Below are positions 8,601 through 47,900 of a DNA stretch of 64,000 bases, one piece after another. The number at the start of each line of letters is the position of its first letter. Within the stretch, counting starts at the first letter, position 1. The DNA is from Chrysomallon squamiferum (Eukaryota > Animalia > Mollusca). The stretch is taken from NCBI GenBank assembly GCA_012295275.1, contig CM022665.1, positions 31,434,001 to 31,498,000 of the forward strand, written 5' to 3'. The notes under the pieces are model-generated. The model had not been told where the DNA came from and did not search any database. It saw only the letters and a program-made list of their open reading frames with translations. The translations under genes were made by a program, and so were the position numbers.

Positions 8601-11484
8601 AAATTCATATAATCACAATTCACTTGGATGAAGGTTTGTTTCAGTTGATATATTTACTGAATTTTTAAATCTAATAATTTTTTTATTTTTTTATTTATTT
8701 AATTTTATTTTTTTGCTACTGCTAGACCTAATGATAAGATGCTGTTTGAATCTTGTATACATACAACAGATGTAATATGAAGATAATGTATGCAGAAAAA
8801 AAAACCATTATACAAACAACAATAACAAAAACAAAGTAAAATGTATAACTTTAAAAATTCATAGAAACAATTCACAGCTTCTGGCAAACTTAGATAAAAG
8901 AAAATTGATGCTAAAAGGGTATTATAATTATCTTCAGTCTCTATTTATGTACAAAATTTCTATAATGTTTTTTCCTCTTAAATTAAATATAAATATAAAT
9001 AATATTGATTAAATGATTTTTTAGTAAAACAGGTAGAGAATTAACAATAGCACTTTGCTCAAGATAATTTTATTCTGTAGTCTTTGAACCTGCACACTTT
9101 TGAGTCTGTTCCTTTTTATCAACACCCAACATAACTGACATACCATCCCACATCAGCCAAGTGGCACCTGAGAAATATTCTGTATGTTTCTCCAACTGTC
9201 AGAGAAATTTCTGTCCAAATGGCAGCTCAATATGTGAGGCATGATGTGCTTTCCCAGATGATATCAATCTGCAGATATATCTGCATCATACTTTTCTTCT
9301 TCTTCTTTTATTGTTGTCATGGGTACTTCTGTCAAACTTTACAGAATGTTATGACCATGTTATATGTTGGATGGCAGTTCAAATAGTTTGAACTTATTCT
9401 TTTTTAAGTAACTGGAAAAATACTGTTTTCATTCAAATCACTAAAGGCAGTATAAAAACTGTATCTTGTATCTTATTTTGATACCTGTAACATGTTGAAG
9501 GTTATGAAATATCCCCAATACATTGTCTGATGACTGTTTAATTTTGGTATATCTTTAGAAAATGCAGGTAAACCACCAATTTTCCAGTTTATGGATGATC
9601 ATTCATTTCTTTTAATAATTACTAAATTAAGAAAGAAAGCATTTGAAAAGTACAAATAATAAATTTAAAAAAAATGTTTTTTAACCTGATTGGCTTGTTA
9701 AATTTCCTTTTTTACCCTTGTTATATTGTTGTTACATCTAATGTAATGAATTAGTTGTGCTAACTGGGCTGTTGGTACACGTTTATTTGTTCATGAATTA
9801 TATTATCTAGCTTAAAAACAGATGTTTTAATCACTGTCTGTTATTATAAAAAAAAAAAAATTCAAACTGCTAGAAGACATAAATAACAATAAACTGTTAA
9901 CATTATCATTAAAACACGCATTAAAAATGCCACTGAGAAGAAAAAAAGAAATCTGTCTCATACATTTGTCTGATAATATTCTTAAGAAATAATGTTACTG
10001 TTATAAAATGAAATGGATAACTTGCTGGCAATAAGAATTTTACTGGAATTTAACGCTGAACATTCTTTTTCCCCATCAAACTATTTCTTTTATAAAACCT
10101 ACATACACACACACACTCACTCACACACACAAATGTACACACACACAAACACAAAAAAAAGTATCAGTAAACAACAAAATGTTGATAATGCCATACAAAA
10201 ATAACCTTTTCACAAATTTTACATTCTGTAAACATTATAATTCTGTCTTATATTACACCTTGTGACATCAGCTTTTAGATTTTATCTTAAGTATTGTTGG
10301 AAATGTATTTGTAAATATGATGTATATATACTTGTACACAGATGTAGAGACTGAAGCTATAAAAATGAAAGATATGCCTCATTTATACTTCATTCTATCT
10401 TAATAATTTCTTTTTTCACTTGGTTTTATTTTCTGTAAGATAAAATTCTGACTTCTACTCAACTATATGGCATTAGCTTTCAAAATTTATCCAAAAAAAT
10501 TACTCAATTCTAAAGATACTGGAAAGCATTCTAATTTAAATAACTACTCACAGCTAGTATTTCTCTCTAAGGGATGTCCTGTTTTTTATTTTGATTTGTG
10601 AATGATAATGGGAAATGATTTTCATGGTTTTCTTGGTTTCACAACATGAGACAAATCAAGACAAAGTAGTTTTAATTTGAAACAACAGTGCAATAGGTAA
10701 CACATTTAGAAACTTTAACTGTTGATTTCACCTTCACTCTAAGATGAAAGGTTCTTTAACATAAAATCACAAAATTAACTGCAGGCCTTTTTAAATATGT
10801 AGTGGTTATCTTTCTCAGAAACTTAATGTACTTTTATTTGAAACTGGTCACACATTAAATTTAACACACTTCTTTTGAAAATTATTTACATTATTCACAG
10901 CAGTAACTGAAATTTCTAAGCTAAATCTGACACATTTCAGAGAGATTTGAAAGCAAAATTCTACAAAAATGTTTTATGCATTTGTTTCAACTGATTGGCT
11001 TTGTACTTTAAGTAAAAAATCTGCAGCCATGTTTATCCAGTCATCTTTTCAGTTATATTCCTTTATATACATGCTAACAATAACTTGTAATTACTTAACA
11101 ACTTCACACCATAATTACCTTTTATTTTTGGGTACTTTCTATTTTACTGTTTTTCTTTAACCCCATTTGTGTTCTGTTACATTAAAACTGTACCAAATGA
11201 ACAAGCTGCCAGATATATATTTTTTAACCACTTTCATATTCTTATGAACTGGAGAACCTAATAAAACTATAACTTTTTGCATAGACTTTGAATCAAGAGT
11301 AGATTCTGAAGCCAGTCTAGACTTGGTTGTTATTAGTAAACATTGTAGGAAATCCATAGCATACAACAGATTGTAAAAACAGCAACACTTAAACATTGTA
11401 AGCTCACAAATCATTATAAAAACATCTTTAATAATAATGCACATGATGTTTTTGAAAAATTCAGTAGCATATTCAGTTAAACCT

Positions 11485-11825
11485 GTCATCAGAGGAACAT
11501 AATATTACTGAACAGCTGTCATGAAGAAATTGTTTTATTTGATGGCTATTAGGTGTCAGATACACAATTATAACACATACTGTGTTTTAGGGTATTAGTG
11601 AAAATATCTGCCAGACATGATTATAAGCCATTCTTGTACTTTACAAACAAAACAAAAATATTCTGTTAAACTTTTTGTCAGAGAAGCATAATATTACTGT
11701 CATATGGAAATTGTTTTATTTAACAGCTATTAGCTTTTAGATAAACATATTCTAAGGCATTAACAAAAATGTGCCATCATGATTATGTTATTCATGTACT
11801 TAACTAACAAAACTAAAATAGAATA
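11485..11825. repeat. Diverged direct tandem duplication (~190-bp period)
   Basis: CATAATATTACTG...GAAATTGTTTTATTT...GCTATTAG...CATGATTAT...TGTACTT...ACAAAAC appears twice. Confidence 0.7.
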
Positions 11826-15855: not shown

Positions 15856-18800
15856 CAATACTAAAGAGAAGAAAGAGGGCTGAGTGATTTGATTGTCAAG
15901 ACAATTCCACAGCTATTATATCGTGCAAGCCTCAGTGTCTGATTGTTCCTGTCATTTCAAGATTGGTTTTATTTGATGAAATTCGATTAATTTATTTATA
16001 ATTGCCAGAAGCTGCTGTGGGTTAAATAAAATAGCAATATTCCATGCATTTTTATTAGTCTTTTTGATAAAATCTTTTTATTTTTTTTTTTTTTTAAATA
16101 TAAACTTAGGTTTGTAGTAAATGTGTATTAAAATATTACAGTTTAATATAAAATAAAATTATTTACTCATCTTGACATTTTATATATATGTAAGTGTGGG
16201 TGTATGTATGTATGTATGTATATAAAACAAAATTGTTATTATTATTTTTTTAATGTTTTTCATAGCATTTTAACTGCAAATTGTATTATGACTAATAATT
16301 ATGTTGGGGAATAAATAAAGCAAGAAGTCATGCAAGATAAAGTTTCATAACTGTTATTCTATTTTTGCCATAATATTCTAAATTTGCTAAATTAAGATTT
16401 AATTTTCTTAATCAAATAGTTAACTCAAGTAACATCTACTGTTGTCACAATATTAAAATTGTCTTAGAATCTGGATTTCTTTTTTCTTTACAGTTTAGTA
16501 TATAAAAGACTGCATCATGCTATAGTTTCCCCTTCTAATTGTTTCTATGTATTCAAATCCATAAGTAACACTATCATAATAAATTATTAATACAAAATGA
16601 AAAATGTAAGGTGCATTATTTCCTTCTTTTTTTTTTTTCTCTTGGTGTTGATAAAATCAATATGAAATTAGTGTGCAACATAAAATGGTGAATGGAACAA
16701 TTATTTCATAATGTGAATCAATATAGAGATCAATACAGACTGACAGCAGATCTGATCACAGTCATTTAATTACAATTGCCACATATTAGTCCAACATGCA
16801 TGCTTTCATAACATAACAAAGGGAAGGGACAAACCATAGTGTGTATATCATGTCTAATGTATAATGATACAAAGTCTTCATATATGAAATTATGACATCA
16901 GAAAGCATTAAAATAATAAAACATATGATTTACTGTTTAAATCAGTGTCATTTAATTACAGCCATCATGAATTAGTGTAAGAAGAAGTCAATATGAAATT
17001 ATGATATTAAAAATCATTAACATAATGAAACATGTTTTAAAGTTTAATTCAGTTGGTATATGTTAAAATTATTTAATTATAAAAATTATGTATGCTTTCA
17101 TAACATAACAAAGGGAGCAGGAAAAAATCATGGTATATAAAATTTGTCAAATGTATGACAAGAGGAAGCCAATATCCTGAAGCATTCAATATAGACCAAG
17201 CCATTCACTAATAACACACTTAAATTGTAGCATATTACAGTTTTAATTTGTTCTAGCAGATCTCCAAGCCATTTAATTACAATTACTGTAACACTGATCA
17301 ATGATTATAGGGTGAACGAAACCATAGTGATTTTGTAGACAATATATATATAAAATTGTAACATTAAAAATCATTTGCATAATAATAACAATACTATGTT
17401 TTACAGTTTCAGTCAGTGCTGACAGATCTCCAAGTATCATATATTGCAAATCTGCCAAATATGCATGTTTTCATAATACAACAAAGAGAGGAGAAAAAAC
17501 CAAAAACATGGTGTATAAGTAATTTTATTAAAGAAATTATAATAGAGTAAAATTCATTTAAATAATAAAATTAATGTTATGCTACCCAACTGAAAAAAAA
17601 CCAAAGAAAAAAAACCAATTGTTCAGTTCATGTTAGTTGATCTCTAGGTCTTTTAAATACACCTGTCGTATATATCATAAATCTGAGCTTAACTTGAATT
17701 CTTTAACAAAAAACAAAAAAACAAAAATAATTTGCTGTAATCAAATGTTCAAAAGAAAAATGGCATTTTATGTTAAAGTCCCAATATGTACAATGCTTTG
17801 ACTTATTAAAAATCATAAAAATCATAAAAAAAACCCATTAATAAATATGTATTACAGTTTCAATCCATCTTGGTATGTCATTTTATAACATTAATCATGT
17901 ATTTAAAATATGTGTCCAAACTGACTGTATTCACAAGGTAACATGTATTAAGGCAACACTATGTGAGGAATAAAAAACCCAGTATACTGTTTTGTCTAAT
18001 GTATGTTGTATTCCAGCATGAAGATTTTCTTTATAGATTTTTAATTTGGTTAGCCATCACAGCCACAATAAACAAATAATTCATTAAATATATATATTTT
18101 TTTAAAGAAACAACAGAATGAAAATAATAAAACAACAATAATAAAAGTAACAACAACAACAATAGTAGTAGTAATGGTAATAATAATAATAATAATAATA
18201 AGATAATACACTAAATACTTACTTTCATTCTTTCTTTCTCAGTGAGTGAAGACTTCTGTGACTCTGGCAGTTTATCATGGGCTGCTATGACAGTCTCAGC
18301 CTCAGCCAACCAGTCTTTAACTTTCATTATCTGAGTCTGAAACTCAATAAACACCCCATCCAGTCTCTCACTCTCCTCCTGCAACAAAGTTTAAAACACT
18401 CTTTTTAATCCGATAACAGTCTATTATTTTCTTTCTGATTACAGAATATGCATATGAAAAAGGTTTATTAAAAAAAAATTATCTTCATTTTACTGAGCAC
18501 ATATATAACAATGTAAGTTAAGCATCCCTTATCAAAATTTCCAAATCCCCGAAAACATAAGAAAGCTTTTTTTCTGAGCAGCCAATATAGATATATCTTA
18601 CAGTTTTTTGATGATTTAATGTACATAAGCTTCTTTTTGGACATAAAAATTATATAAAATAATCTGCAAGCAGCTTCTGTAATTTATGTGAAATTTAAAT
18701 CAATTTTTAATTTAGTCTTGACTCCTATTTCACCTTATATTCCAAATATGAAATATACTTAGACCTGAATCCCACTCTCAGGCTGAAAATTTATGAAATT

Positions 18801-19400
18801 CAACAAATGTCTGGTGCAAAGCATTCCAGATAAATGATGTTTTAACTGTCTTAAATGTTATAATTTCATATGGTTGAGAGGAAAGACAAGAAGTCTGTAA
18901 TTCTGTATCTGAAACCTCCAAGTGTACCTGTAATATTTTCTTCCTTCTGGACAATCGCTGAGCAAGATTATTGAGATCATCACCAAGTTTGGAAGTCAAA
19001 TCTGTGGCATTGTCAATCTCTCCTTCATCACTGAGAGATCTTAGCTGTTCTATGATGTCTATCATAGAGGGAATCAGAGGTTGCCTGTGGATTAAATCAT
19101 TCTGGGCAGTCTGTAAGATAACAGTCAACATCACTTATTATTGTTTATTACTGTTAAGACTATTTTTATTGCCATGATTATGATGATGATCATCATCATC
19201 ATAATCACTGTCATTATTGTTTATTATTAATATTATTATTTTCAAATACCTTATTTCTGCTATACTATTATTATTTTTGAAAATTTATTTTATTAAAATT
19301 ACTAAGACACATTCATGATGCTTGACTCAAAGCTTTAAATTTTCCACAGCAATATTTTTTCTTGGGATTATTCAATTAATTTTCAATATTTATTGTTGTT

Positions 19401-27431: not shown

Positions 27432-30146
27432 ACAGTATACATAACATTATGGAAAATGGAAAAGGGAAAACAATGACAAACATTTATGATTTGCAAATAA
27501 TAATAATAACAATAGCAATAAAAATAACAGATTGCAGACTTACAGAACTTTCATGTAACTGAGCTTCCAGTGTTGGAATATCTCCACCTGCTGGATCTTC
27601 AGCATGCAGGAACACATCCATTTCATCCATCCAGCGGGTCAAACCCACCAGCTGATTCTGCAAAGAATAAAATAAAATGAAAGTAAATCATTTACTTTGA
27701 TGACACTCTGAAAACAAATCGGTCTTTGCTGAAGTCTTTGGACTTGATATTACATAGTACTGGATTTATAAAAGCATTCTTCATTTTATTTTCTTATCCT
27801 TTTCATTCATTTATTATTTTAATTAATGTAATTATTTGTATTGCTTAAATTTTTAAAATCATAATTTATTTCTTGTAACTCTTTTTGTTGCAGGATTTGA
27901 AATGTATTACAGAATTGCTTAAACTAACTGAGCTGATATATTTTGGCACCTGAACTTTATATCAAAGAGTTTTTCTAACCAGAGATCCACCCACGGGCCA
28001 CTTGGGTGTTTTCACATTAAAGTAATTGACATGCTTTTCTCAGTTTCTGTTAATACCACTGGTTATATTTATCTGAACATTGAAAAAAAATTATTTTGAG
28101 AAATTGATTTTTTGTTTTAAGTAGTTAAAAGAAATTTAAAGAGAGAAAGAAAGAAAGAAATAGTAAACTATTCTTAAACCTGATATTTTATGAATTTTTT
28201 TATTTTTTATTTTTTATTTTTTTTAAATAACAGACTGTTTAGCTAGCTTTATTTAATATTAACCAGCCCAGTAATTTCTGGTACACACCTTAGGCTGTTA
28301 GGTGGATATGTATTTTATTTTTTGGCATCCTATTATAACATGCTGTTGTTTTAAACTGAACAAATATAAATACTATTAACAAAAGAAAATATATTCTATT
28401 TTTAAATATATCTTACCTGATATTGTTTCATCTGACTAATACATCTCTCCAACTTGCCCAAGCGTTCACCAATTGCTGTTGAAACATCAGTCCAGCGGCC
28501 GTTGAGGTTTTTCAAATCCTTGCTCAGGTTGCTGGATTTTTCCTTGTCTTCAGTTTTCTGTACAAGATCCTGTCCAGTCTTGTTAATGTAATCCAAACTG
28601 CTCTGATGATCTTTGAGGTCTTGCTGTAATTCCTGACAAAGACACAAAATTTATTTTTAATTTTATATTCCCATTAATGAACAGATTTTATTTTATTTCT
28701 AGTTTAAAAGTTACTTTTAACCTCATTTTCCATTAATGAATAGAAATTATTTCATTCTCTTGCAGTTTCAACAATTATAAAAGTAACAGTTAAGAAGAAA
28801 AAATCTTTTTACGTTTGGTGATCCAAAAATGGAAATTGTTTTATTAATTTAGTTTTAACATTTAATGTACTGTTTTGTGTATGTCTATAATCAAATATAG
28901 TTCAGCTTAGCTCAATGAATTTTGAAAACAGTATCAAAACATTAAGTATGGAATGCTTACATTATTTCAATTCTAAACATACTCATATTGTATCACATAA
29001 AACAAAAAATAAATAAATAATAAATAAATTAAAAGGATGTTTATGACAATTCAGTACATAGTATAAAATCCAAAATTGTCTGTAATATTAAACACTTGTA
29101 GTATTTTTGGAAAAAAGCTTGTTAAACACAATTTACATTTTTATAAAAATCTAGATAAAAACATATTTACGGAACACAAAATTTCAAAAAGCATTGTATA
29201 AATAATCTGATTTCTTCTTCCAAAAACATTACAAGTGTAAACATCAAAAGAAAATTATCCAACAGTTCTAGGATTTGAAAATAATTACTGGTATTGATAT
29301 ATATATGTTCTTTTCATGATTTTTTAAATAAAATGTATAATATTTAGTTCGGACAAAATAGCTATGTTAAAAATTTGTAACAGTTGATCTCATTTTGTTA
29401 TTTTACCTTAGCTTTATTGTTTTTTAAAGAAAGAGAAATATTTTTAAAAATTTAAACCTCAATAAATAAAATAAATAAATAAAAAAAATCCTTTAAGACA
29501 AATAAGGTTTTGTTGTTGTTATTGTTGCTGTTGTTTTTATACTCTATTTAAGAGTAATTATTAGTTCAGTGATGTAAAAATAGTAATAACAAACATTACA
29601 CTGTGAAATAAATTCTTAATTTTAATAAATCTAATAAGATTTATTAAATTCAATAATCTCTCCTCACTCTGAAATCTGACTAATTTCTGTTATATTTATC
29701 CATCAAGCAATATTTAGATACTAAATAAATAAAAAAAGACACAAAAAAAAACAATACACAAATAAATACAATTTTAAACATATAAACACACACACACACA
29801 CACGCGCATGCACAAAATTACATACATGTATACATTCCATATGTTACATACACAGATGTGTGCATTAACACATGCACAAATGCACATAACAAAACACATT
29901 CACGTAAGTATTCACCCGATATTGCTGCAACTGTTCCTCCATTGTGTCTACAGTTGTCATGGATATCTTTTCTGACTGCAAAATGCCCTCCATATCAGTG
30001 AGCCATCTGATAATTGCACTCATAGCTTCCAGGTAAGATTTGGAGGGTGCTTTTGCCAGAGCTTCACTAAGCAATCTATTCCTCTCCCCTACAAAATACA
30101 AAATGTTTTTTTTTTTTAAAAATATGCAACTTATCTCTATGTAAAA

Positions 30147-30189
<43 letters not shown>

Positions 30190-33100
30190 ATATTTAATAA
30201 AATAATAATAACAATAGAAAATACATTAACTGATTTCTTTCATTCTTCAACTTAGGAAACTTCAAAGACAAAATATCTCTGAAGCTAAGAGATTATTTTT
30301 CAAATTGGAAAAAAAATAACAATTTATTTTTGTGCTCAAAGTTTTTCATTTTATAACAGTTTTTGTTTTCTGTTTTATAGGTACATGAAAACAGAGACAG
30401 ATGGAAATGATGAACCAAGCAATTTAAGAAAAAAAATTAAAAGTTGTAACAGTAAGAAAAGTTTTGATTTTTACTGTTAGAAGTTTAAAAATATATATAT
30501 ATATATATATATTGGAATGAAAAAAATCACTTAAAAGAAAATTTTTATAATATACTAGGTCACAGTAACATTAACAAATGAAAAACAGTTTTAAACATTT
30601 ACAAAACAGTACAGAAAGATTTTTTTATTTATTTAAATTTACTTTATTTTTTTTTATAGTTGTTTAAATGCTAGATATTCAAAAAGAGGTTGTAATTTCT
30701 GTTAAATTCTTGGAAATGAAAGTGATTATTTAAACTATATGAAATCACAAGATGAAGACAATTTATACACACAGACATTTTTACACAAAAGACAAAAATA
30801 ACATATTTTTATTCATGCAATTTATTATATCAAATAGAATATTCTGGTGAAATATCTTTCTACTTAACACATAAATAAAATGTATAAAAATACGAAAATG
30901 AAGTGAAAACTAATCACTGGAAGCATGATGGTGATAATGAGCAAATGAAGAAATCAAGTTGAACTGAACATGCAATATGGAATACATGCATGACATGATA
31001 TTTGATAAAACTAAAATTTATATTCTTTCATCTACAATAATTACATTTAATTAGCAGATCCTTACCTACAGCTAAATATATATTTTTAAAATTTTAGTTG
31101 TTTTTGTTTTTATCATAACCATTTAGATAAATAGGGTTATTTATTAAATACAGATAATAATTCTGCAATACCATTTAGTTATAATTATTTTTTGTTGGGT
31201 TTAATAACAATCAATGTAATTAATGAGATCAATTTTTAATTTAGTTTGTAAACTACAATGAACTAATATAAATTTAAAAATCCCTGATAAAATCTGTAAC
31301 ATAGATGTTTAGAAAATGTTTTTGAAAATTGTTTAATTATTATTTTTAAAACATTAAATAATAATAATAATAATGTTATAGTTAAAAATTAAAACATTAA
31401 TTAAATAACTTATTATATCTGTTTTTAAAATATACTGTATAAATAATAAATAAATAAATAAATATTATTCAATAATTTAAATTACACAATATTAACTTAT
31501 ATTTACTGATAATCATTCATTAAAAATTAAAAAATAAATATATATATATATATATATATTTTTTTTTTAATTATAAAATGTTTAACATACAACACATATA
31601 GTATACATTAGATGAAATCTCTACAAATTATAAAAACATAAAACATTTACATTCAGTACTGAAAAATAATATATTATAATAGAGTGACAGACATATTATT
31701 ACATATTATCTATTTTACTTACAATCCTCAGCATCTGTAATAAAGATTTCTTATATAAACAATTTCTGGCAGAAACACGAAATAAGTGCTGAGGTGATTA
31801 TCAAAATTTTAAATTAATAATAAATTAATTTATGTAAACTTATATATTTTATTTGCTTTAAATTTATTTAACTTCATTTTCAAGTTTTATTTAGTAATAT
31901 TTACATCTAGGTAATTAATATAAAATGATAAAATATAAATATCACTCTCACAGTAGACATGTTTAATGTATTTAATGTATTTTGATATTTTAATGTATTT
32001 ACTTACTTATTTCATTTAATGTAAATATAATTTAATATATTAAATCAATATTAGACTGATGAAAGAAGATGTCAGTTTTATATGAAGGTTAATGTATGGA
32101 TGGGATTGCAAAAGACATACAAAATCGTACAGTATGTATCATACTGCAACAAAAAGGATACATGTAATACACACCAGATATGCAACATAAATATTATATA
32201 AAATAAGTATATTGCGACATAAATATTATATAAAATAAGTATATTGTGACATAAATATTATATAAAATAAGTATATTGTGATATAATTATTATATAAAAT
32301 AAGTATATTGTGACCTTGAGCATCAATTTGTTTAAAAACATTATCAAAATTTTAAAAAGTGTATATGTAAACTGCATATATAATAATAAAAACAAATTAC
32401 TTAGTCATTAATTTTTTTCTTATTATCAGTTTACATTAAAAATATACATTAAAAACTATAACAATGATTCTCTGCAAAGAAAGGTTTTTGAAAATATGTC
32501 ATGATAAATAAAATCTGTAACTAACCCATTTTCTGTAAAGTATTCATCCATCTAATATTGAAAGTCTCCAAGTCTTTTATGACTTTTTCTGGTCCATGAA
32601 GATGTTTCACAATTATTTCCCCTTGTCGTCTAAGACTGTCTACTCTGTCTTCATGGGATTTCATAGCTTTTAATTTCACCTTCAGAAAATTAAATTTTAA
32701 AATAAATTTTAATAAAATAACTGAAACATTAGTCTTTTAATGTAAATAAAAGATTTTCTTTATATTAAGATATATATAGTCGTATTTGTGCAAAGAGATT
32801 TTCTGTGTGAAGAGACATTATTAATGAATTTTAACTTCATATGCGAAAATAAATTTAATATTAGATATGAAAAAAAAATATGAAATAAAATGAAAAAACA
32901 AAACAAAAATAAAAATAATAATAATAACTATTTCTTTAATGTAAATACTAGACATATTGGCACAGATAAACTCAGGGATTTGTTTTAAGAGAATTTCTAT
33001 TGAAATGAACATTATTATTTAGCTTCATATATTAAAATAAATACATCTAGATACAGATAACAGAAATTGTATTTCTTTGAAATCTAAATCCATTGCATTT

Positions 33101-36100: not shown

Positions 36101-39100
36101 CTAAGCATGTGCTACGTTCAAATGCAGAGCTTGTTTTCGCCAAAGACGACACACCACAGTGTCGCACATTGTTTGAAAGGTAAGTGAATGATCTTTCATT
36201 TGATCCCGTGAATATAGGTTTTATTTTCAGCCAGTTTTTTTCAAAATAGGTTTGAAGGCATGAAAAAGTACATTTTTGGACACAACTTTTGATATAAGCC
36301 ATTGCTGGCAACGACATGCACACGGTTAGATTGAAAGATTGAACTTTGACCCTGCTAGACATGCTAAAAATAACATTGAAGTCATTTTGGTGAAAACAAG
36401 CCAAGCATATGTAGAGAGCCCCTATTTTATGACTTTTTACTCCACACTGTTAATTGCTGACCACATGCGCCGAAGTGCGTTTATCCCCATTGCATTCAAC
36501 ACTCTCGTACAAAGAACTGATTCAACATACAACAAGACCAATACCACCATTTAAAAGAGCACATAAAGATCTTTAGTTAAATGTTTTTTATGATAGGATT
36601 TATAGAAGGGATTTGGGAATGGACGAAAATGGACAAAATCTGAACTTTTAACAGCTTCGACCAATTATATATGCTAGGTTGCCAGTACCTACATAAAGTG
36701 GTTATTAAATCATCATGAGAAATCAGAAGAATTTTTATTTACTGCCTTCCATATTTGAAAGATAAGTCCTTTGTGAAGGAAAAAAGAAATTATTGCTTAC
36801 ATATGCATTAAATTTAGTTTTCCATAACTACAAATTTTATAGCTGTAGTTTTAAACTTGACACTAATTTAAATGAAAATATATAGATTCATCTTCTCAAG
36901 TTTTAAAGTTTTTATTTATATCTTGCATTTACTTAAGAAGTTATTAAAAATGAACTTTTTAAGATATTAAAAACAAAATAATTGAAAAAAGCATGAAACT
37001 ATTATATAATGAACCTCTTTGCTTTGATATTCCATCTGCAGTACAAGATGTTCCCATCTTTCTTGGAACTCTTCAAGCTGTGAGGATATCTTATCTATTG
37101 CTGACTGATTGTCGACATACTGAACAATTTGCTGTCCGCATTCATTTAGTTCATCAAATCTCTGAACTTGTACCACCATGTCCTTTTCAATAGACTGAAA
37201 TAAATAGTCATTAGGAGATTACAAAGTTTGAAGACTACAGAAACAAACAAATAAAAATGCACACCTCACTAAAGAATACAACAAGAAAAAGTATATACAT
37301 TTCTAAATATTTAGACAAACTAAAATAAATAAATTAAAGATGCTAAAATATTTAACTTAAATAAATAATCTTAAAGGTTTTTATTCTTAAAGCTTTGCCA
37401 AAAGAACCTGTTCTCGTTAATTAAACAAATTTATCTTTCTTCAATTTTTTTTTTTAAAGACTTGCTTCAGATGTTTGATGTTTAATTTCAAAACAAAAAT
37501 TACAAACATGTTTCTTTTCAGATATTAGAATTATAAAGTTTTGTTATTATCAAAATTTTAAATGGCATAAACAGTTAGTGGGTTTTTTTTTTTTTTTTTT
37601 TTTTTTTGGTTTCTTCCAATTTTTATTACTAATTAAGAAATTGCCAAGAGAACAAAAACAAATTGCATAAAAAATATGTTCTAAATAGTATCAGCATAAA
37701 CACATACCTTCAAGTGTTTGACTTGTGCCACAACTTGTGCTGGATCAGAAATATCAGCCAATCGCATTTGTCCTAACAGTTGTTCTTTTTGTGATAACCA
37801 ATCAGCAAACATGTCTTGTTCATCTTTGAAATGCTGCCATTTGAGTAGAACTTCCTGTAATAATATCCACTGTTTTTCTGTCCACCTACAGATGGAAGCC
37901 CATCTTTTCCCCAGTGATTCTAACTGCTTTTCCATTGCTTCACAAACTACAAGAAAACAGTTGTAAGAAATAACGTATTCTTAAAATATAGAAATTAGTT
38001 CTGGGAAACATAATCATAATGCAGTATAATTTTTCTGCTTTATCTTACCATATACAAATTAACTCTTGAGTTAGAGTATACTGTATGTCACTATTTCATC
38101 AATTTATTATTATTTTTTTTTTTTAAAATCTCTCAGGTAATTTATTTTTTATAAAAAAAAAACATGGTGTGAATATTACATTAGCTTAGTTATTTTGAAA
38201 CTTCTGCCTGTATAAGGTAAGGAATGCAGCAGTATTTTATTATTAAAATTTATTAACTTTTTCACTAAAGTACTTGAATACATAAGAAAAATAATTTTTT
38301 GCTAAAAGAAGATCAATTTGAATATCAAGGAAATGCATTTGTATGAGATTTTATGTAAACAATGGATCAAAAACAATGAATAAGGTCTCTACTGAAATGC
38401 ATGAGCAAGAAGTCAATGGACGAAAGTTATAAAAATGGATACAACTTACCAGTCTCGGTGTTTGTGTCATCAACTATCACCACCATATTCTGTAGACTAT
38501 CCACTCTTTTCTGCTGGGTCTCAAGTGATTCCTGGATTTTCTGTAATAACATTAGAAGTATTAACAGATAATCCAAAGCTTTATATTTACTAAATGTAAA
38601 GATTTATGACAATATGTTTCTTTTTTATGGGGATTTGTTGACATATTTGTATTTTCATCATTTAAAATGTTTTGCATTTACTTATGTTTTGTTTCTTGGA
38701 TATTTTCATTGAAGTTTTTACATCACTATATGTTCTTTCTAAAAACGTGATAATATACCTTGTGGTCTTCAACCTGTTGTTTTATTGTCTCAAGATCTGA
38801 GCCAATGGGTTCCTGGTTGGCAATGCATTCTTCCATCTGAGACAGCCATTTCTCCAGCTCATCGAGTTGCTGCTGTTGCAGATCCATTAGAATCTGCTGC
38901 AGTCTGTAAAAAGATTATATATATATAATTATTTAATGAAATCTCAAGATATTTTAATATTAACTATTATTACGTAACAGTTATAATTATATTTTACATA
39001 AAACAATGATTATTCTTTTAAATTAGTAGTAAAGAGTCTTTTACATAAATCATCACAGAGGAAAGTATATACAACAACCTTGGATAACTACATTTGTTTG

Positions 39101-41864
39101 TTGTTGTTTTTTTGGAAAACATTCAAACAGAAAGTATGAGAGAGAAATAATAAATGTAAAGAAAGCATAATGTTTCTTAAAATATATGCACAGATTTGGT
39201 TTTAGTAAGCTAATTAATATAAAATTTGAAACAACAAGTAGAGTCAATGAAAATTTGATATACACCAGTGTCATATATTACTTATATTACACAGTATAAT
39301 ATCCTGGCTTTGGTATACAGTGTCTTGTATTACTTATATCACACAGTATAATATCCCAGCTTTGGTATACAGTGTCTTGTATTACTTATATCATACAGTA
39401 TAATATCATGACTTTGGTATATAACACAGTGTCTTGTATTACTTATATCATACAGTATAATATCATGACTTTGGTATATACCACAGTGTCATATATTACT
39501 TATATCACACAATATAATATCATGACTTTGGTATATACCACAGAGTCATATATTACCTATATCACACGGTATAATATCATGACTTTGGTATATACACCAG
39601 TGTCATATATTACTTATATTATAGTGTACAGTATCTTGGCTTTGGCTTCCAGGCACCAGTTATTAACCTGTCATGCCAACCTGACAGAATTGTCTCTCAT
39701 CAAGCCTGTACAGTGACAACACAGACAGTGATAGGAGAAACAACTGCACATTAATCTAGGTCGCAGTTTGATATTTAGATGCAGTGACTGAACTTTGACC
39801 CTTAGCATCTACATAACTATTAAATGGCACATTTCCTGTGAGAAAAATGCTATGAATTGAAACATTTCACAGTTTAATGTAAATCGTTTGTTGTTTTTTA
39901 AGATGGATTTGTTTTGAATAATTTATTTCTAAAGTTCATATCAAAGACATACTACTATATACTAATGGATAACATAAGAATAATGTCAAGTCAATATATA
40001 CATAGAAATCGCTGTACTATACACACAGACACAAATACAGTAATTTGCACACATACACACCACACATACATACACATACATGTCCATTACACTAACTTTC
40101 AGCAAGAGAAATATACATACACAATTTTACACACACATTTACATATACACATACATATAATTAACATAAAATTTCTATAAAAATATTTAAAAATAATTTA
40201 TTTTCTGTGGTATAAGCTCGATGTTTCAAAGAAATATTTAACATGAATGTGACATTTCTTAATAGAAAACATGAAAACTTGGTGTTCCTAGCAAGATGTC
40301 TTTTTCTACAAATACAGATATATTTAAAAACGTTAAAAATATGATAAGCAAATGCTGTTTTCTTCACAGTTTACCAGAATTTCAAGAATGATGAAACCAG
40401 GAATCTGTAGCACCTTAAAACACCCAAGTCCCAATGAAGTGTATCTTGTTCTCAAATTAACCAAAGAAACATGATATAAAAGGAGTTTTGGTCAACAAAT
40501 AAACAGACATAAAAACCTCTGCCAAAAAGTTCATTTGTGTGTGGTCGAGGTTATAAAAGCACTCAACAAATTTACCAATTACTTGCAGCAGTGCATTTAG
40601 TAGAAGACGAAAAACCTTGGCAACTAAGTGGGTGAAAAACAAAATTGTCAAAACTCCACCCAGTTAATCTAAATAGTAATCCAATGTCTTGGTTCATTTC
40701 ATGTCTCTGATGTTTTTAAATTGTCATAGCTCTGAAAAATGGACATCTAATTATCTAATACCTTATAAAAATAAAAATGGATACAAAATAATAACTGATT
40801 AACTATTTTAAGTGTATTAACATATTCTGGGATTGTTGGGGGTTTGTTTTTTTGTTGCTTTATTTATTTATTTATTTATTTATTTATTATTATTATTATT
40901 TTATTTTTTTTCTTCTGGATAAGGAAAAAAATTATTTAAATGTTTTTAGTAATTTTATTATTTTATTATTTTCTTTGGTAAACTGTTATTGGCTGTGGAC
41001 TTTTGTCTTTATTATTATTTTTTTTTTTAACTTAAAGATACAAATGCAAATTGGAACTGTTATAAAATCTGCAACAATCTATGTATTATTCAATCCCTTT
41101 ATGAATAAAAAACAAACAAAATCAAAAAGAAATCCCCAACAGCAGCAACTGGATGAGCTGGAGAAATGGCTGTCTCAGATGGAAAAATGCACTGCCAACC
41201 AGGAACCCATTGGCTCAGATCTTGAGACAATAAAACAACAGACTGAAGACCACAAGGTATATTATCACGTTTTTAGAAAGAACATATAGTGATGTAAAAA
41301 CTTCAATGAAAATATCCAAGAAACAAAACATAAGTAAATGATTAAATGTGTTTTAACATCAACATATGTAGAAGCAGACACACACACACACACTGACTTA
41401 TATAACCAAATATATTTCTGATACACAAATAAACAGACATGCTTTTTGTGTGTGTGTGTGTGTGTGTGTGCGTGTGTGTGTGCATGTGCGTGTATGCATG
41501 CACAGAGATATGCAAACAAAAAAACAGATATTCATTTTCCACAGTAAAATAAAAATAACTGTTGAATTAGTGACCATAGGTTAAGAAATAAACAACAGAT
41601 GCAAGCTGCATGGTCAACTGCCAAACAGTTGTGCATGTATTCTAAACTGATGATGTGTTTCAGTCAGCTGTCTATGATTATCTGGTAATTACACACAACT
41701 GTATGCCAATATCTCAAACCATTTCTTAGTGATAAAGAAGGCGGTGTGTTTGTATATAAATTAGAAAAGATGGTAAACAGTCATAAAACTGGATAATGAT
41801 GTTAATGAGAAAGGGCACTAAATGACAATACTTGAAGTATAAAACTATACATTATTATATTCTG

Positions 41865-41900
<36 letters not shown>

Positions 41901-44900
41901 CAGTCACTGTTTAGAAGAAAGCACAAGGGATGGAGAGAAACAGAAAAAATAAAGGTGAAAGAAAGAGATGCAGATAAAAGTGAAAGAGGGAAATAAATTG
42001 ACAAATAGAACAAGAAACAGAGACAAACTAGGAGGACAGACAAAAAATGAGAAAGAAAGGAAAAGATAACTGGAAAAAAAAAGAATGTGTGAAACAGAAA
42101 AAGTGTGAAGAGAAATAATGAACAAGACAGAAAAATAAATAAAATAGCTGTGTAAAACTAAAAGACAATAAACTTGTTTAAAATAGAAAGAAAAAAATGG
42201 AAAGCAAGTAAAGAAAGTATGGATCTGATTCATGTTATTAAAATTACTTAACTTTTTACAGTAGATTCTGAATGACAAAATATATTATAGAAGTTGTATT
42301 TTTAATGTTTTTTTCTACAACATGCACTCTGCTTTAAGCTTTACTGTCAAAAAGAATTTTGTTCAACATGAACAGATATAATGGAATGTTTTTGTCAATA
42401 TTGTATTACATGCACTGCACTTGCATGTTTTACACTAAGCATTATTCTAATGTTGTTTTTATTTTATTTTAAGAGCAAGAGAGAAAATTAACACTTTTTT
42501 CTTCTTTTGGTAAAAAAAAGAAGATAAAAGGAATAATTAAGAAAAATAAATGAGAAAACAAATAAATAGATAATTTAAAAATCTAGTTAATAAACAAAAA
42601 GCAGATTTTTCCAATTAAATAAAATAAAAAAAATAAATTAAGCCAAAAAAAAAAAAAAAAAAAAAAAAATCTAGTTATGTAGGGCATGTATGTTGTAACA
42701 ACAATATTGCACCAGCAAAGATAAATATCACGTAATAAGGTGCACTGACTCATTGTTTTCAAATAACACAAAGACGTCATATGTGTGAAGAAAGAACAGC
42801 AGAAACCAATTACAGTTGGACAGCCATCTCATCAATGAAGATGGCTGTATAGTGTTTGTTTTCTCTACCACCAGTACATACTGCTATATTCATCTGGGAA
42901 GGCTGTAAAAAGACCCAACATTCTCCACAGTGATAACTTCTATATTTACCTCAAGAAATCTCACCCATCAGCAGAACTATCTAAACCAAACAGCAGTTAG
43001 TGTTTACTACCAACAAATGTTGTGCTTTGTTAATTCTTCTTTCTGATTTGCTAAACATATTGACATTTCTGGTACATGTATATGTATTATTAGAACAGAA
43101 AAAAAAAAAATAAAATAAAATAAATAAATAAATAAATAGAAACCAACCAAAAAAAAATAAAATAATAATAATAATTCAACAAAAAAATACCAACAACAGA
43201 AAACAACACTACTAAGATTTCCATTTTCTATTATTGTTACATATCCCCAGAATTTTAAATTAAGTTTTTATAACTGATGCATGATACTTCAAATTCAAAA
43301 TGGAGTTACTGTTCTGAATGCCCCCCCCCAAAAAAAAAGAGAGAAAAAAGGTCCATTTAAAAACAAAATTAAAGATAATATAATGAAATTTATAAGTAAA
43401 TGAAAATATTCTGTCCATGTTGAACTCAAGATAACACTATGATGACTTGTCTGTGCCAGTTTTCAAGCTGAATTGATGTGTAGTGTCCTAGTACAACATG
43501 TGACTGTTTAATGCATTTGTCTAGACGCCAACCTTTGATAATTATAATAAAATATGTCAATGAAAAACCAAGCCCAAGGAGATGCATTTAAGCTGTCTTT
43601 TTTCTTTTTTCAAGATGACATATCAAAATGATTAAAAAAACAAACAAAAAAAACACAACTTAAAAACTGATAGATACAGGAAGTTATTTACTTGTTGATT
43701 TAACTTTATGAAAACATCTCCATAATATTGTTTCATGCCACGTTAATACTTTATTATTAGAAAAGGCTGGTAAGTAGAGGTTGTAAATTATCATTTGGAA
43801 AATGTATTTAAAAGTATTTATACCACCATAGATACATGCACACAAAAGGGATTTGCTGTTTCTAGTCATGCCTGGATAATATTATATCCAATTACAGACT
43901 GGAAAGAATAATAATAATAGTGATAATAACAATAATAATAAATGCATGATAATATTATATATATCCAATTACAGATGCTAATATTTAAAAGAATAAATAA
44001 TAATAACAACAACTACAATGACAATAATAGAACTGCAATGGTATAATAACAAGGACAGCAACAACAATATTAATAAAAACCTATAAAAATTAGAACCACT
44101 TAGACCAAACAATGATAAATGACAAAATGCATTCAATGATTAAGTAAAATTTAAAGTCAGTAATGAACTCACTTGCTTTGTCTTGACAATGCTTTGAGTC
44201 TCAGATCCTCCCATCTATTATTAAGAAGACCCATCTGCATTCTGATTTCATGTTCCTCCTCATCATTAACTTTACCATCAGCTATCAAATCATTGCCCTC
44301 CTTCAGGACATTCCCAATACTGTCCTGATGTTTGGTTAACTCCAGCATAAATTCCTGAGAATCAAAACATTAATCTGCTGTGGGTTTGTTTTTCTATTTT
44401 CAGATTTAGATTTTGAGGCTGAGAAACAATTAAATTTAGTGTTTGATAAAGTCAGGTACTGCTGAATTTTAATCACTCTGTGAGCACAGGTGTGTTGAAA
44501 GACAGGTACGGAAGACAGAAAAACTGACTTAACAAGGTGATGGAGAGGGTGGGCCAGAGACAGAGGGACCGACTGAGAGAAAAGAGGAGAGAGAAGATGA
44601 ATGATTTCAATAAAAAAACATTGGGATAACTTTATAGAATAATGCAGAAATGCAACAGGTATTTTTCAATAGGTCAGCAGTCAGTATTATTAACTAATTT
44701 GGTTAAACCAGATTTTTAGGTTGACTAGTTTTATTTGATACAGCTGAAGAAAAGACATGACATTTATTTTGATTTAAAAGTAAAAGAAAAGAAAACAACT
44801 TGATATTAAGATAAACAGCTAGAGAATGAAAGAAGGGATGACATTAAAACAGAAATACAGACAGCTAAAGGGATTTAGAGGGAGAGATAAAGTAATCCAA

Positions 44901-47900
44901 AAAGATAAAGATACAGACATAGAGAGACATTAAACTAAAATGATGAATAACTTTACAACTTATAATAACTCTCAGATAATAAAAAATACAAATAGGCCTA
45001 TCAACTCTTCACCCTTCAGATATAATTATACCTCATGCTCATTGAACTGTTTCTTCACTGTGTGCACATCACTGCCTATAGGAACCTGTTTCTCTATGAC
45101 CTCCTCAGCTTCCAGCAACCAAGTCAGGACATTCTCCAGAGCATTTTGGTACGAAGAGATGTCTCCAGACATGTTACTCATAGTGCTGTGTCGACTCTCA
45201 GAGCTACTCATGCTCAGGGACATAGCAACCTGAAGGAAAATGAGAAACATGTTAAAATATAGCTCAATTTAAAACCAAATCAAAGAATAAAAATAGAAAA
45301 TTAAATTAAAAACAGATTTTTAAAAATATAATTCTGAAAATAAAACAGTTTAAAAAAAATATCAAACATACAAACAGACTTGAACATTTTTATAAAAAAC
45401 AATTAAATGAAAAGCAAAATGAAGAATTAGTGTGGGATAAAAATATCAAAAACGATAAGTTCAAAAATGAAGTAAAACAAAAACAAAATATTAAAATACA
45501 AATGAATCTGAAAATGATAAAAGTGAAAAGAGGGGGAAAAAAACATTAATGATTATTATGAGATAGTGAGTGAAAAGCAAAAACAAAATAATGTAATAAA
45601 ATATAATTATAAAATGTAGCTGAAAAGTTAAGAAATAAAGATAAAAAAATATTTCAACATAATACAAAAAAATTCACTTTTGAAATAACAATAACATACT
45701 GGATTTATAAACATATAAACCTTTTTATAAATCTAACAACATAAACTTCATTGAACTTAAAATAAATATGGCCAATCATTCAATTAGAAAGAATAGATTT
45801 ACATACAACAGATATTTTAATAATTTTATTGTATAAAAATAAACAATATTCTGGATAAAAAAATAAATAAATCTATTTATGAATCAATCAACATAAAATT
45901 CAATGAACTTGGAACACACATGGCCAATCAATCACTCAAGATGAAAACATCCAAGTATGTGAAAGAAAAGAAAAAAGTATCTCTAGAGAGTGAAATTATA
46001 GCTGATACTATAGGGGAATGTATTTAAAAAACAACAACATTAGAAGAAAGAGGTCAGTTTATTTATGTGAATGTAAACAAAATTCACAGCCTGTGTTCTT
46101 GATGTAGTGGGGAAAACTGAAGATGGAAGATTACAAAAATAGATTTATATAAATAGCAAGAAAAGAAAACATGTAAAAATATATGTATGGATGGATGGAT
46201 ACATTAATGCATGTTTGTCTATCTTATCAAATTTTCTTGCAGTGACAGTATGATCACAGAAGGTCACTGCTGCAATGTGACAGATCACCTTTCCAATTAA
46301 TAGCAAGAGCTTTTTATAAATGTATATTCTTTCTGTAGCAGGAATGTACATCCATGGTATCTAATAAACCAACTACAGGAAACTTGGACAAAGGATGAAA
46401 CATTCCTGCAGTTTTCTCAGGTGAGCACTGTAATACTTAGTTACAACTTACACCTATTCACAGAAGATAATTAAAAACTACTTGAGATTGTGGTACAAGA
46501 TGGGTAATCTAAAACAGAAACCAGAACAGCTTGATACATTTTCCTAGTTCTTTTTCACACTGTTCTAAATATCTTCTAAGATAAGCACATTTACCCTTCA
46601 GTACCAAATAGCTATCTATTTTCAAACAGAACATCAACTTTTACACTCTTGAAACAATGGTTGCAAAAAAAAATGTATATTATGGATTAATTATATCCAA
46701 TGGCAATTTGTTTAATAACCATAAATATATGTCATGATGATGATACTCAGAAACTTTCAGATGATATTGCACTGATGATAAACAAAAGGATCACATTATC
46801 ATAATAAGTTAAATTTATTAATTTAAAAACATAAAAGAAATCATTTGTTAGTTTTAAGCAGCTTGTAAAATAGAAGAAATTAAAACAAATTTATCAAAAT
46901 AACAATGAAATATACTTTATCATATTAACATGAAAATTCCAGAAATAATTTCAAAATAAGAGTAAAATTTTTAATTTCAAAATGTAACAGAAAGAAAAGA
47001 AAGGACATACTAGACAGACATACTAATGTGTAAATATGTTTATAAATGCAACCATTCACATTCTAATCTAAGCAGTTTCATTCTGGCTTCAACACTGGTG
47101 TTCTTGTTGTCGAAAGCAGATTCCATCAAGTGCCGTAGAGTTCAGAATAAGCTGTAATGTATGTGATGACAACAGTTAGGATCATTCAGTATTAGTATTT
47201 TGGCAGCAGGTTGTTTCTGCTGCATTAAAATGTATCCTAAGTTTGCCAGAACTTGGACAAGTATCTGCACATTCCCCTCAGATATCAATCATCTTTTTCA
47301 TGCTTGCTTATTGTAGCAGTTAACCAGGTATGTCTGATACCTTGGATGCAAGTGTACGTGTCAACAGTAGATACTATTTCAAACACAGTTGTGCCTTAAG
47401 ATACCTGGCATGTTCTTTTCTCACAGCTAATGCATGCACAATGGCTTTGATACCCTTTGGCAGACAGTTATCTTAAGTTGTATCATAATCTTTGTACACA
47501 TGCACAAGGGTATAATGTTATCTTTTGATGACATCTTTAGCAACTGAACAAGACACACATAACTAAAATTACTTAAATTTAATGTGAGCCTATCATTCAG
47601 GAATTTGTTTTGCAATGTACAACAGCTACTGTTGAAGTAAGTTAATATAATTTCACCAAAAAAAAAAAATCCACCTGGGATGACCTTTCGTGACCTGACA
47701 CTTCAAGCACTGGTTAGTGATACACGTTTATTTTACATGTATGTGAAATGTATAACATTTAAATATAACATTTTTAAAAATATAAATTAAATTCAGAGAG
47801 AAAAATACTATATTAAAATTAAATAAAGTATATTTCACTCTGCATTTAAATAAAGTTTTTAATGACTGGTTCAAATCCAGGCTTATAATACAAATGATCT

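What the first reader, a model, noticed from the sequence alone, without database searches (positions are those of the whole stretch)
38675..41340. Inverted exon duplicate that can fold back on its own exon and 5' splice site in the dystrophin pre-mRNA
Seen: 41137-41340 is the reverse complement of 38675-38878, covering the last 120 nt of the 145-nt exon, its donor and 84 nt of intron. Identity is 199/204 and the arms are 2,258 nt apart. The copy lies in the upstream intron, so the pre-mRNA carries a ready-made antisense strand transcribed before the exon, allowing a ~200-bp duplex that buries the 5' splice site. Known: long intramolecular duplexes are ADAR substrates (editing complementary sequences), and masking a donor promotes exon skipping, the principle of DMD antisense therapy. 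Skipping this exon alone shifts the frame (NMD), but skipping it with the preceding 182-nt exon removes 327 nt = 109 codons, about one spectrin repeat, in frame. Inference: a natural cis-antisense switch for exon skipping or A-to-I recoding in dystrophin. The null model is a recent neutral template-switch duplication.
Basis: partly seen in the sequence, partly recalled or inferred. Interest (0 to 1): 0.82.

Follow-up and report, generated by a model that had tools for sequence, protein, structure and literature searches.

The report
Backwards exon copy in dystrophin intron
An intron of what is likely a snail's dystrophin gene really holds a 204-base backwards copy of the next exon's end and splice site, predicted to pair with it in the RNA, but the exon is spliced in normally in both RNA assemblies examined, so the copy is likely a decaying leftover of a DNA copying error rather than a splicing switch.

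Summary
41137-41340 is the reverse complement of 38675-38878 (199/204, sharp ends, arms 2,258 nt apart) and covers the last 120 nt of a 145-nt dystrophin exon, its donor and 84 nt of intron. The frame arithmetic also holds. It is not an assembly artefact: copy-specific junctions or letters occur in contigs of 4 of 4 same-organism genomic runs laid (3 studies). A near-complete duplex is predicted (-361 kcal/mol). The switch reading is not supported. The only forms assembled in 2 of 2 RNA runs (one study) include the exon, join it normally on both sides and carry genomic letters. The copy has changed conserved codons, and the in-frame two-exon skip is generic to dystrophin. Contigs drop rare forms, and NMD would hide single-exon skipping, so low-level editing or skipping stays open. 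Two weak hints of kept pairing (97 identical nt over the donor; all four transitions give G·U) have P about 0.03-0.12 and ordinary explanations. Best reading: a local inverted templated insertion, common or fixed in the species and decaying. The scan has noted such copies in at least five other genomes.

The parts
41137..41340 (+). Inverted copy (204 nt) of the exon's last 120 nt, donor (copy donor after 41256) and 84 intron nt. It is read as antisense in the minus-strand pre-mRNA, 2,379-2,582 nt upstream of the real donor.
   Evidence: junction or copy-specific letters in public runs
38675..38878 (-). Template arm: last 120 nt of the 145-nt exon, 5' splice site (AAG|gtatat) and 84 nt of the next intron
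38759..38903 (-). 145-nt dystrophin exon (start of spectrin repeat 2; phase 2 to 0; equivalent of human exon 12, numbering recalled)
   Evidence: both junctions in RNA contigs
44173..44354 (-). Upstream 182-nt exon (second half of spectrin repeat 1)
   Evidence: joined to the 145-nt exon in X6 and X7
45032..45229 (-). 198-nt exon (first half of spectrin repeat 1; ends in phase 0)
38450..38540 (-). Downstream 91-nt exon
   Evidence: joint 38540-38759 in X6 and X7
38879..41136 (.). 2,258-nt spacer (loop of the predicted duplex), holding the exon's acceptor and first 25 nt and a 57-nt minisatellite (39258-39619)

Best explanation
A 204-nt piece of a dystrophin exon and its donor sits backwards 2.3 kb upstream in the same gene, likely pasted by a local template-switch repair event, and it is likely a decaying passenger: it is predicted to pair with the exon in the pre-mRNA, yet the assembled mRNAs include the exon with unchanged letters. 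Shown: the copy, its sharp ends, its presence in several individuals, its changes at conserved codons, and normal inclusion of the exon in mRNA contigs. Inferred: (1) origin by polymerase template switching or templated break repair; (2) splicing factors and RNA-binding proteins usually occupy the donor before the arm 2.4 kb away can pair; (3) the identical 97 nt over the donor and intron reflect chance or gene conversion between the arms, which selection on the protein would limit in the exon part but not in the intron part; (4) the G·U-type differences reflect ordinary A>G and C>T mutation on the non-template strand.
For: Sharp ends and a nearby template. The left junction is bridged by contigs of X1, X2 and X6; right-junction contigs occur in X1, X2 and X5; X4 holds both letter sets at similar depth, 102 and 119. 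Among 84 of 114 homologues kept, the exon's residues are the common ones (I27 in 72, T in 5; V44 in 50 and I in 27, T in 1; E25 in 28, K in 3), so the copy carries the derived letters, 4 of 5 of them amino-acid-changing. X7 has one 1,907-nt contig running 182-nt exon, 145-nt exon, 91-nt exon with no other letters over the stretch laid; X6 has both normal joins; neither shows a loose end at 38540 or 38759 or a T>C change on the + strand. The introns hold other local duplications (11469-11820, 16796-17525, 45683-45934). The sense strand is T>A (0.051) and G>C (0.038) skewed, the pattern tied to mutation asymmetry in mammalian introns (PMC2927911, passages). Germline templated insertions number about 100 per person in a human study (PMC8421209, passages).
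Against: The predicted duplex is very strong (-361 kcal/mol against -37.5 and -33.2 for the arms alone), and the antisense arm is made first, so some pairing is likely. All differences avoid the donor and intron part (P 0.03-0.12 counting 4 events, 0.013-0.07 counting 5), and all four transitions give G·U pairs (P 0.06-0.125). The RNA evidence is contigs of two runs from one study; contigs drop rare forms and NMD would remove single-skip mRNA. The junction microhomologies (7 nt) are no better than chance (12% of random sites) and no empty allele was seen, so the repair mechanism is inferred. The A>G asymmetry is reversed in fish introns in the same paper and has not been measured in this animal.
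Confidence: 0.68

Rival explanations
1. Same accidental origin, but the duplex forms in a sizeable minority of transcripts and has side effects: ADAR hyper-editing of both arms, some intron retention, or NMD-coupled skipping that trims dystrophin output. Tolerated, not selected.
For: 202 of 204 arm bases pair in the MFE of the 2.8-kb region. There are 85 adenosines on the exon-side arm and 41 on the copy arm. Inverted repeats within a few kb are studied as sources of editing and skipping (PMC13019027, passages). X6 has a low-depth contig (8 against 468 for the spliced joint) across the intron after the exon.
Against: The low-depth RNA contigs over the arms carry unedited letters. The intron contig mixes copy letters with the exon's intron and may be DNA or pre-mRNA, since X6 holds 56% of the words of an 8.4-kb, mostly intronic stretch.
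Confidence: 0.22
2. A selected cis-antisense switch: in some tissue or stage the copy masks the donor, giving NMD-coupled down-regulation or a two-exon skip that makes dystrophin one hybrid spectrin repeat shorter.
For: The copy is common or fixed (4 of 4 genomic runs show it), the 97 nt over the donor are identical, and the differences are mostly wobble-compatible. The double skip is in frame and in repeat register: the 198-nt and 145-nt exons both end at Pfam position 44 of 105.
Against: Nothing about the copy would favour co-skipping of the upstream 182-nt exon. In-register two-exon skips are generic to dystrophin (PMC3748829, passages). No copy at 3 distant loci (weak, 54-61% protein identity). 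The statistics are post hoc and marginal.
Confidence: 0.06
3. Assembly artefact: the copy is chimeric, or it is real DNA placed in the wrong locus.
For: No long read spanning both arms was available. The left-junction path is missing from the contig graphs of X4 and X5, and right-junction contigs have 30 letters on the arm side, one short of the tool's 31-letter rule.
Against: The left junction is bridged with 45 and 222 letters in X1, X2 and X6, from two studies. Both flanks match the window's intron. Both letter sets are present in X4. The missing flank is 20-24% GC, and X4's AT-rich contig has under half the depth of its GC-rich ones, which fits dropout.
Confidence: 0.02
4. The copy works at DNA level or on the other strand. 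Recombination between the arms would flip the 2,258-nt spacer and bring a new acceptor (41037) in front of the exon, or a + strand transcript uses the copied donor as the end of a 219-nt exon.
For: A T-tract plus AG at 41017-41037 gives a 219-nt phase 0/0 pseudo-exon, and the + frame of the copied codons is stop-free for 114 codons upstream (0.17% of window positions; other frames have 6 and 8 stops).
Against: The upstream exon ends in phase 2, so the flipped exon would shift the frame. X6's contig runs unbroken over 40915-41181 and no other partner is joined at this donor. The open frame is largely microsatellite and poly-T, and acceptor-like sites lie within 150 nt of 25% of positions.
Confidence: 0.02

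Closest known systems
Local templated insertions by template switching (MMBIR-type; PMC8421209 passages; PMC7025897 passages)
   Same: A short segment copied from a nearby template, with sharp ends, carried in the germ line.
   Different: Junction microhomology could not be shown (no empty allele; 7-nt matches are at chance level). The template happens to be an exon end with its donor.
Intronic editing-complementary sequences of ADAR substrates such as GluA2 Q/R (recalled, not read)
   Same: An intronic sequence complementary to an exon end and its donor, predicted to form a long duplex.
   Different: Known ones are shorter, imperfect, conserved across species and give measurable editing. Here the duplex is near perfect, arises from a copy of the exon itself, and no edited letter appears in RNA contigs.
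Splice control by RNA structure: donor-masking stems (SMN2 exon 7, MAPT exon 10; recalled) and inverted Alu pairs causing loop-out skipping (PMC13019027, passages)
   Same: Pairing would reduce use of a splice site.
   Different: The masking stems are local, and Alu pairs flank the exon without covering it.
Hybrid spectrin repeats from in-frame two-exon loss in DMD (PMC3748829, passages)
   Same: Loss of the 182-nt and 145-nt exons would join two half repeats in register.
   Different: This follows from dystrophin's exon phasing and needs no antisense copy. No such mRNA was seen here.

Membership tests
Local inverted templated insertion | Template lies nearby and the insert is a copy of it | tested here: met
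   204 nt, 97.5%, inverted, 2,258 nt away
Local inverted templated insertion | Sharp breakpoints, with junctions present in genomic DNA | tested here: met
   No extension past either end; left junction bridged in X1 and X2; right-junction contigs (30 arm letters) in X1, X2, X5
Local inverted templated insertion | Microhomology at the junctions | tested here: inconclusive
   7-nt matches to the template's neighbourhood at both ends, reached by 12% of random sites; empty allele unknown
Local inverted templated insertion | Not carried by a transposable element | tested here: inconclusive
   No target-site duplication or terminal repeat evident at the junctions; no whole genome is held to test the flanks
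ADAR editing-complementary sequence | Intronic sequence able to pair with the exon | tested here: met
   Prediction only: -361 kcal/mol; 202 of 204 bases paired in the MFE
ADAR editing-complementary sequence | A-to-I editing in the duplex | tested here: inconclusive
   No + strand T>C change in contigs of X6 or X7; contigs show majority letters only
ADAR editing-complementary sequence | Conservation with compensatory changes across species | tested here: inconclusive
   No copy in 3 of 3 distant loci with the same donor position and at least 2.8 kb upstream; organism B did not match this exon at 85%; no close relative available
Donor-masking RNA structure controlling alternative splicing | An alternative isoform exists | tested here: inconclusive
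   Only the included form was assembled in 2 of 2 RNA runs; rare and NMD-degraded forms would be missed
Donor-masking RNA structure controlling alternative splicing | Splicing depends on the pairing | not testable with these tools
   Needs a minigene or deletion

The most novel reading that the evidence does not exclude
A fixed, exon-derived antisense arm in the upstream intron acts as a built-in antisense oligonucleotide on dystrophin. In tissues or stages not sampled it buries the donor and sends transcripts to NMD or to a one-repeat-shorter isoform, with the donor part kept perfect by selection. This would be a natural version of DMD exon-skipping therapy born from a duplication accident.
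Probability: 0.07. Interest if true: 0.75.

Novelty: new member of a known kind. Interest (0 to 1): 0.2.

Why it matters
If neutral, it is a clean natural test of how far long-range pre-mRNA pairing matters: a near-perfect 204-bp complement over a frame-critical exon's donor persists in a population while the exon is spliced in. That is useful but modest. If raw RNA showed editing or NMD-coupled skipping, it would show how a duplication accident can create an editing-complementary or splice-masking element in one step.

Tried and rejected
No whole genome is held, so the flanks could not be tested for repeat families, and genome-wide rates of such copies are unknown. A homolog search with another exon against longer proteins found nothing. 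Rfam found 0 matches in 38400-45300. An older, longer duplication was rejected: no homology past the 204 nt. The 7-nt junction matches to the template's surroundings are at chance level. The 293-aa insert at this exon junction in a Bulinus protein model is tandem-repeat sequence with no real match in this intron, so it is probably a gene-model artefact. The first metagenome scan found no relatives. The second gave 13 loci; 9 lack a donor at this position and 1 more has under 400 nt upstream, leaving 3 informative. Organism B (X10) matched only the 91-nt exon (10 differences in 81), so it cannot date the copy. Holes in cover were not used as evidence: X5 at 40987-41094, X4 over much of the exon locus, X6 right of the copy. 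Joints with 21-22-letter sides were set aside as repeats. Both arms were never laid together, so skip joints were sought only as loose ends at 38540 and 38759. The loose-end table was cut (31 rows not shown); that carried no such note. Paper searches for a published precedent found 0 papers or only general ones; searches on mollusc editing found nothing relevant. These cover open-licence papers only, and no supplements were read.

Full report
Observation. The + strand at 41137-41340 is the reverse complement of 38675-38878. It is the longest inverted repeat in the window, 204 nt at 97.5%, E 3e-95. The five differences (38864, 38830, 38823, 38773, 38772) all fall in the exon part. Homology ends sharply on both sides. 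The gene is on the minus strand. Six exons from 45229 to 37015 translate without a stop; loss of the 145-nt exon gives a stop 61 nt into the next exon, and loss of 182+145 nt stays in frame. The 182-nt exon matches utrophin and dystrophin repeat 1 and the 145-nt exon matches dystrophin 445-494. Of 8 homologues I picked, the closest over these exons are two gastropod proteins (65%, against 47-54% for the others), so the animal is likely a snail, as earlier scan notes also say.

Is it real DNA? Nine of 11 listed runs hold the region; all are kept as contigs. I laid four genomic runs of the same organism (X1, X2, X5; X4; X5's kind is not on record). The left junction is bridged (45 and 222 letters) in X1 and X2, and in RNA run X6. 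I take this to be the overlap expected at a graph branch. X4 holds both letter sets side by side at depths 102 and 119. Against this, the left-junction path is absent from the graphs of X4 and X5. That flank is 20-24% GC and X4 shows strong GC bias, so dropout is my reading. X1 and X2 show a single arm contig with the copy's letters only. For X1 its depth ratio (1.60) fits collapse of two different arms (1.56 expected); for X2 (1.95, low depth) it fits identical arms better, so gene conversion in that animal is not excluded (the tool warns that depth is no copy number). X1 may be the source of the window; X2, X4 and X5 remain without it. No read spans both arms, so placement rests on the assembly and on both flanks matching this intron.

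Which arm changed? Among 84 of 114 homologues (kept at 42% identity or more, under 1,500 aa, at least 38 aligned residues), position 27 is I in 72 and T in 5, position 44 is V or I in 77 and T in 1, and position 25 is variable with E commonest. The exon keeps these residues; the copy has K, T and T. The copy is therefore the derived, decaying arm. Its 2.5% divergence exceeds the variation among individuals, whose runs hold 88-94% of the region's 31-letter words (X1-X4), so it is probably older than present-day polymorphism (inference).

Could it pair? The duplex is predicted at -361 kcal/mol against -37.5 and -33.2 for the arms alone, with a loop cost near 12. In the fold of the 2.8-kb region 202 of 204 arm bases pair. 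The antisense arm is made 2,379-2,582 nt before the donor. Whether such long-range pairs form in vivo is limited by protein coating and a short folding window (PMC2639721, passages, citing Eperon 1988, which I did not read).

What does the RNA show? In both RNA runs (one study) the exon is joined to the 182-nt exon and to 38540. X7 has one 1,907-nt contig through all three exons with no other letter over the stretch laid. No loose end lies at 38540 or 38759, and no + strand T>C difference is listed. The high-depth X6 contigs carry the exon's genomic letters. So inclusion without recoding is the assembled form. This does not exclude rare editing or skipping, because contigs drop rare variants and NMD would remove the single-skip mRNA.

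Hints of kept pairing. The 97 nt from 41244 to 41340, which cover the donor, are identical between arms: P 0.03-0.12 for 4 events (GT to AC as one) and 0.013-0.07 for 5, depending on the assumed exon constraint. All four transitions give G·U pairs on the pre-mRNA strand, P 0.06-0.125. Both tests are post hoc. Gene conversion between nearby arms, limited in the exon by selection on the protein, predicts the first (inference). The changes on the pre-mRNA strand are C>T and A>G, the classes favoured on the non-template strand in mammalian introns, though A>G runs the other way in fish (PMC2927911, passages; skews in Drosophila, PMC5786239, abstract and introduction). This gene's sense strand has the matching T>A and G>C skews.

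Context. The introns hold several other local duplications, all direct. This is the only long exon copy among 24 exon segments tested. Of 13 related metagenome loci, 4 have the donor at the same codon and 3 of these have at least 2.8 kb upstream; none has an inverted exon copy, which is weak evidence at 54-61% identity. The in-frame two-exon skip would form a hybrid repeat, as many two-exon losses in dystrophin do (PMC3748829, passages; both exons end at Pfam position 44), so it is no sign of design. Templated germline insertions are common (PMC8421209, passages; PMC7025897, passages). The scan has noted inverted exon-end copies in at least five other genomes, most read as relics (AI notes, not evidence).

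Verdict. Real, and probably common or fixed in the species. Most likely a decaying inverted templated insertion (0.68). A by-product duplex with minor editing or NMD-coupled skipping is the main rival (0.22), and a selected switch is unlikely (0.06). I found no open-licence paper describing this kind of element as a natural splice switch; subscription papers and supplements were not seen. Interest 0.2.

Noticed in passing
window 40795-41289 (+): The + frame of the copied codons is stop-free for 114 codons before the copy (0.17% of window positions; other frames have 6 and 8 stops). A T-tract plus AG at 41017-41037 would define a 219-nt phase 0/0 pseudo-exon ending at the copied donor. The peptide is microsatellite-like and no splice was seen in RNA contigs. 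Probably chance; unexplained.
   Followed up: partly
window 40864-41028 (minus strand): Eleven AATAAA hexamers and an A11 run lie just downstream of the antisense arm in the pre-mRNA. X6 has a contig here at depth 18, which could be internal oligo-dT priming, intronic polyadenylation or DNA.
   Followed up: no
window 39258-39619: 57-nt minisatellite, 6.5 copies, between the two arms.
   Followed up: no
window 11469-11820, 16796-17525, 45683-45934: Older direct local duplications in introns, 68-82% identical.
   Followed up: no
window 38772-38773: The two adjacent changes turn GT into AC, its own reverse complement, so they may be one micro-inversion event; in the exon this GT forms a cryptic donor-like site (CAG|GT) 15 nt before the real donor.
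   Followed up: no
window 19175-19207, 29612-29657, 31525-31572: Short near-perfect palindromes in introns.
   Followed up: no
P0032 residues 271-562: A Bulinus dystrophin model carries about 290 residues of tandem-repeat sequence at this same exon junction, probably a gene-prediction artefact.
   Followed up: yes
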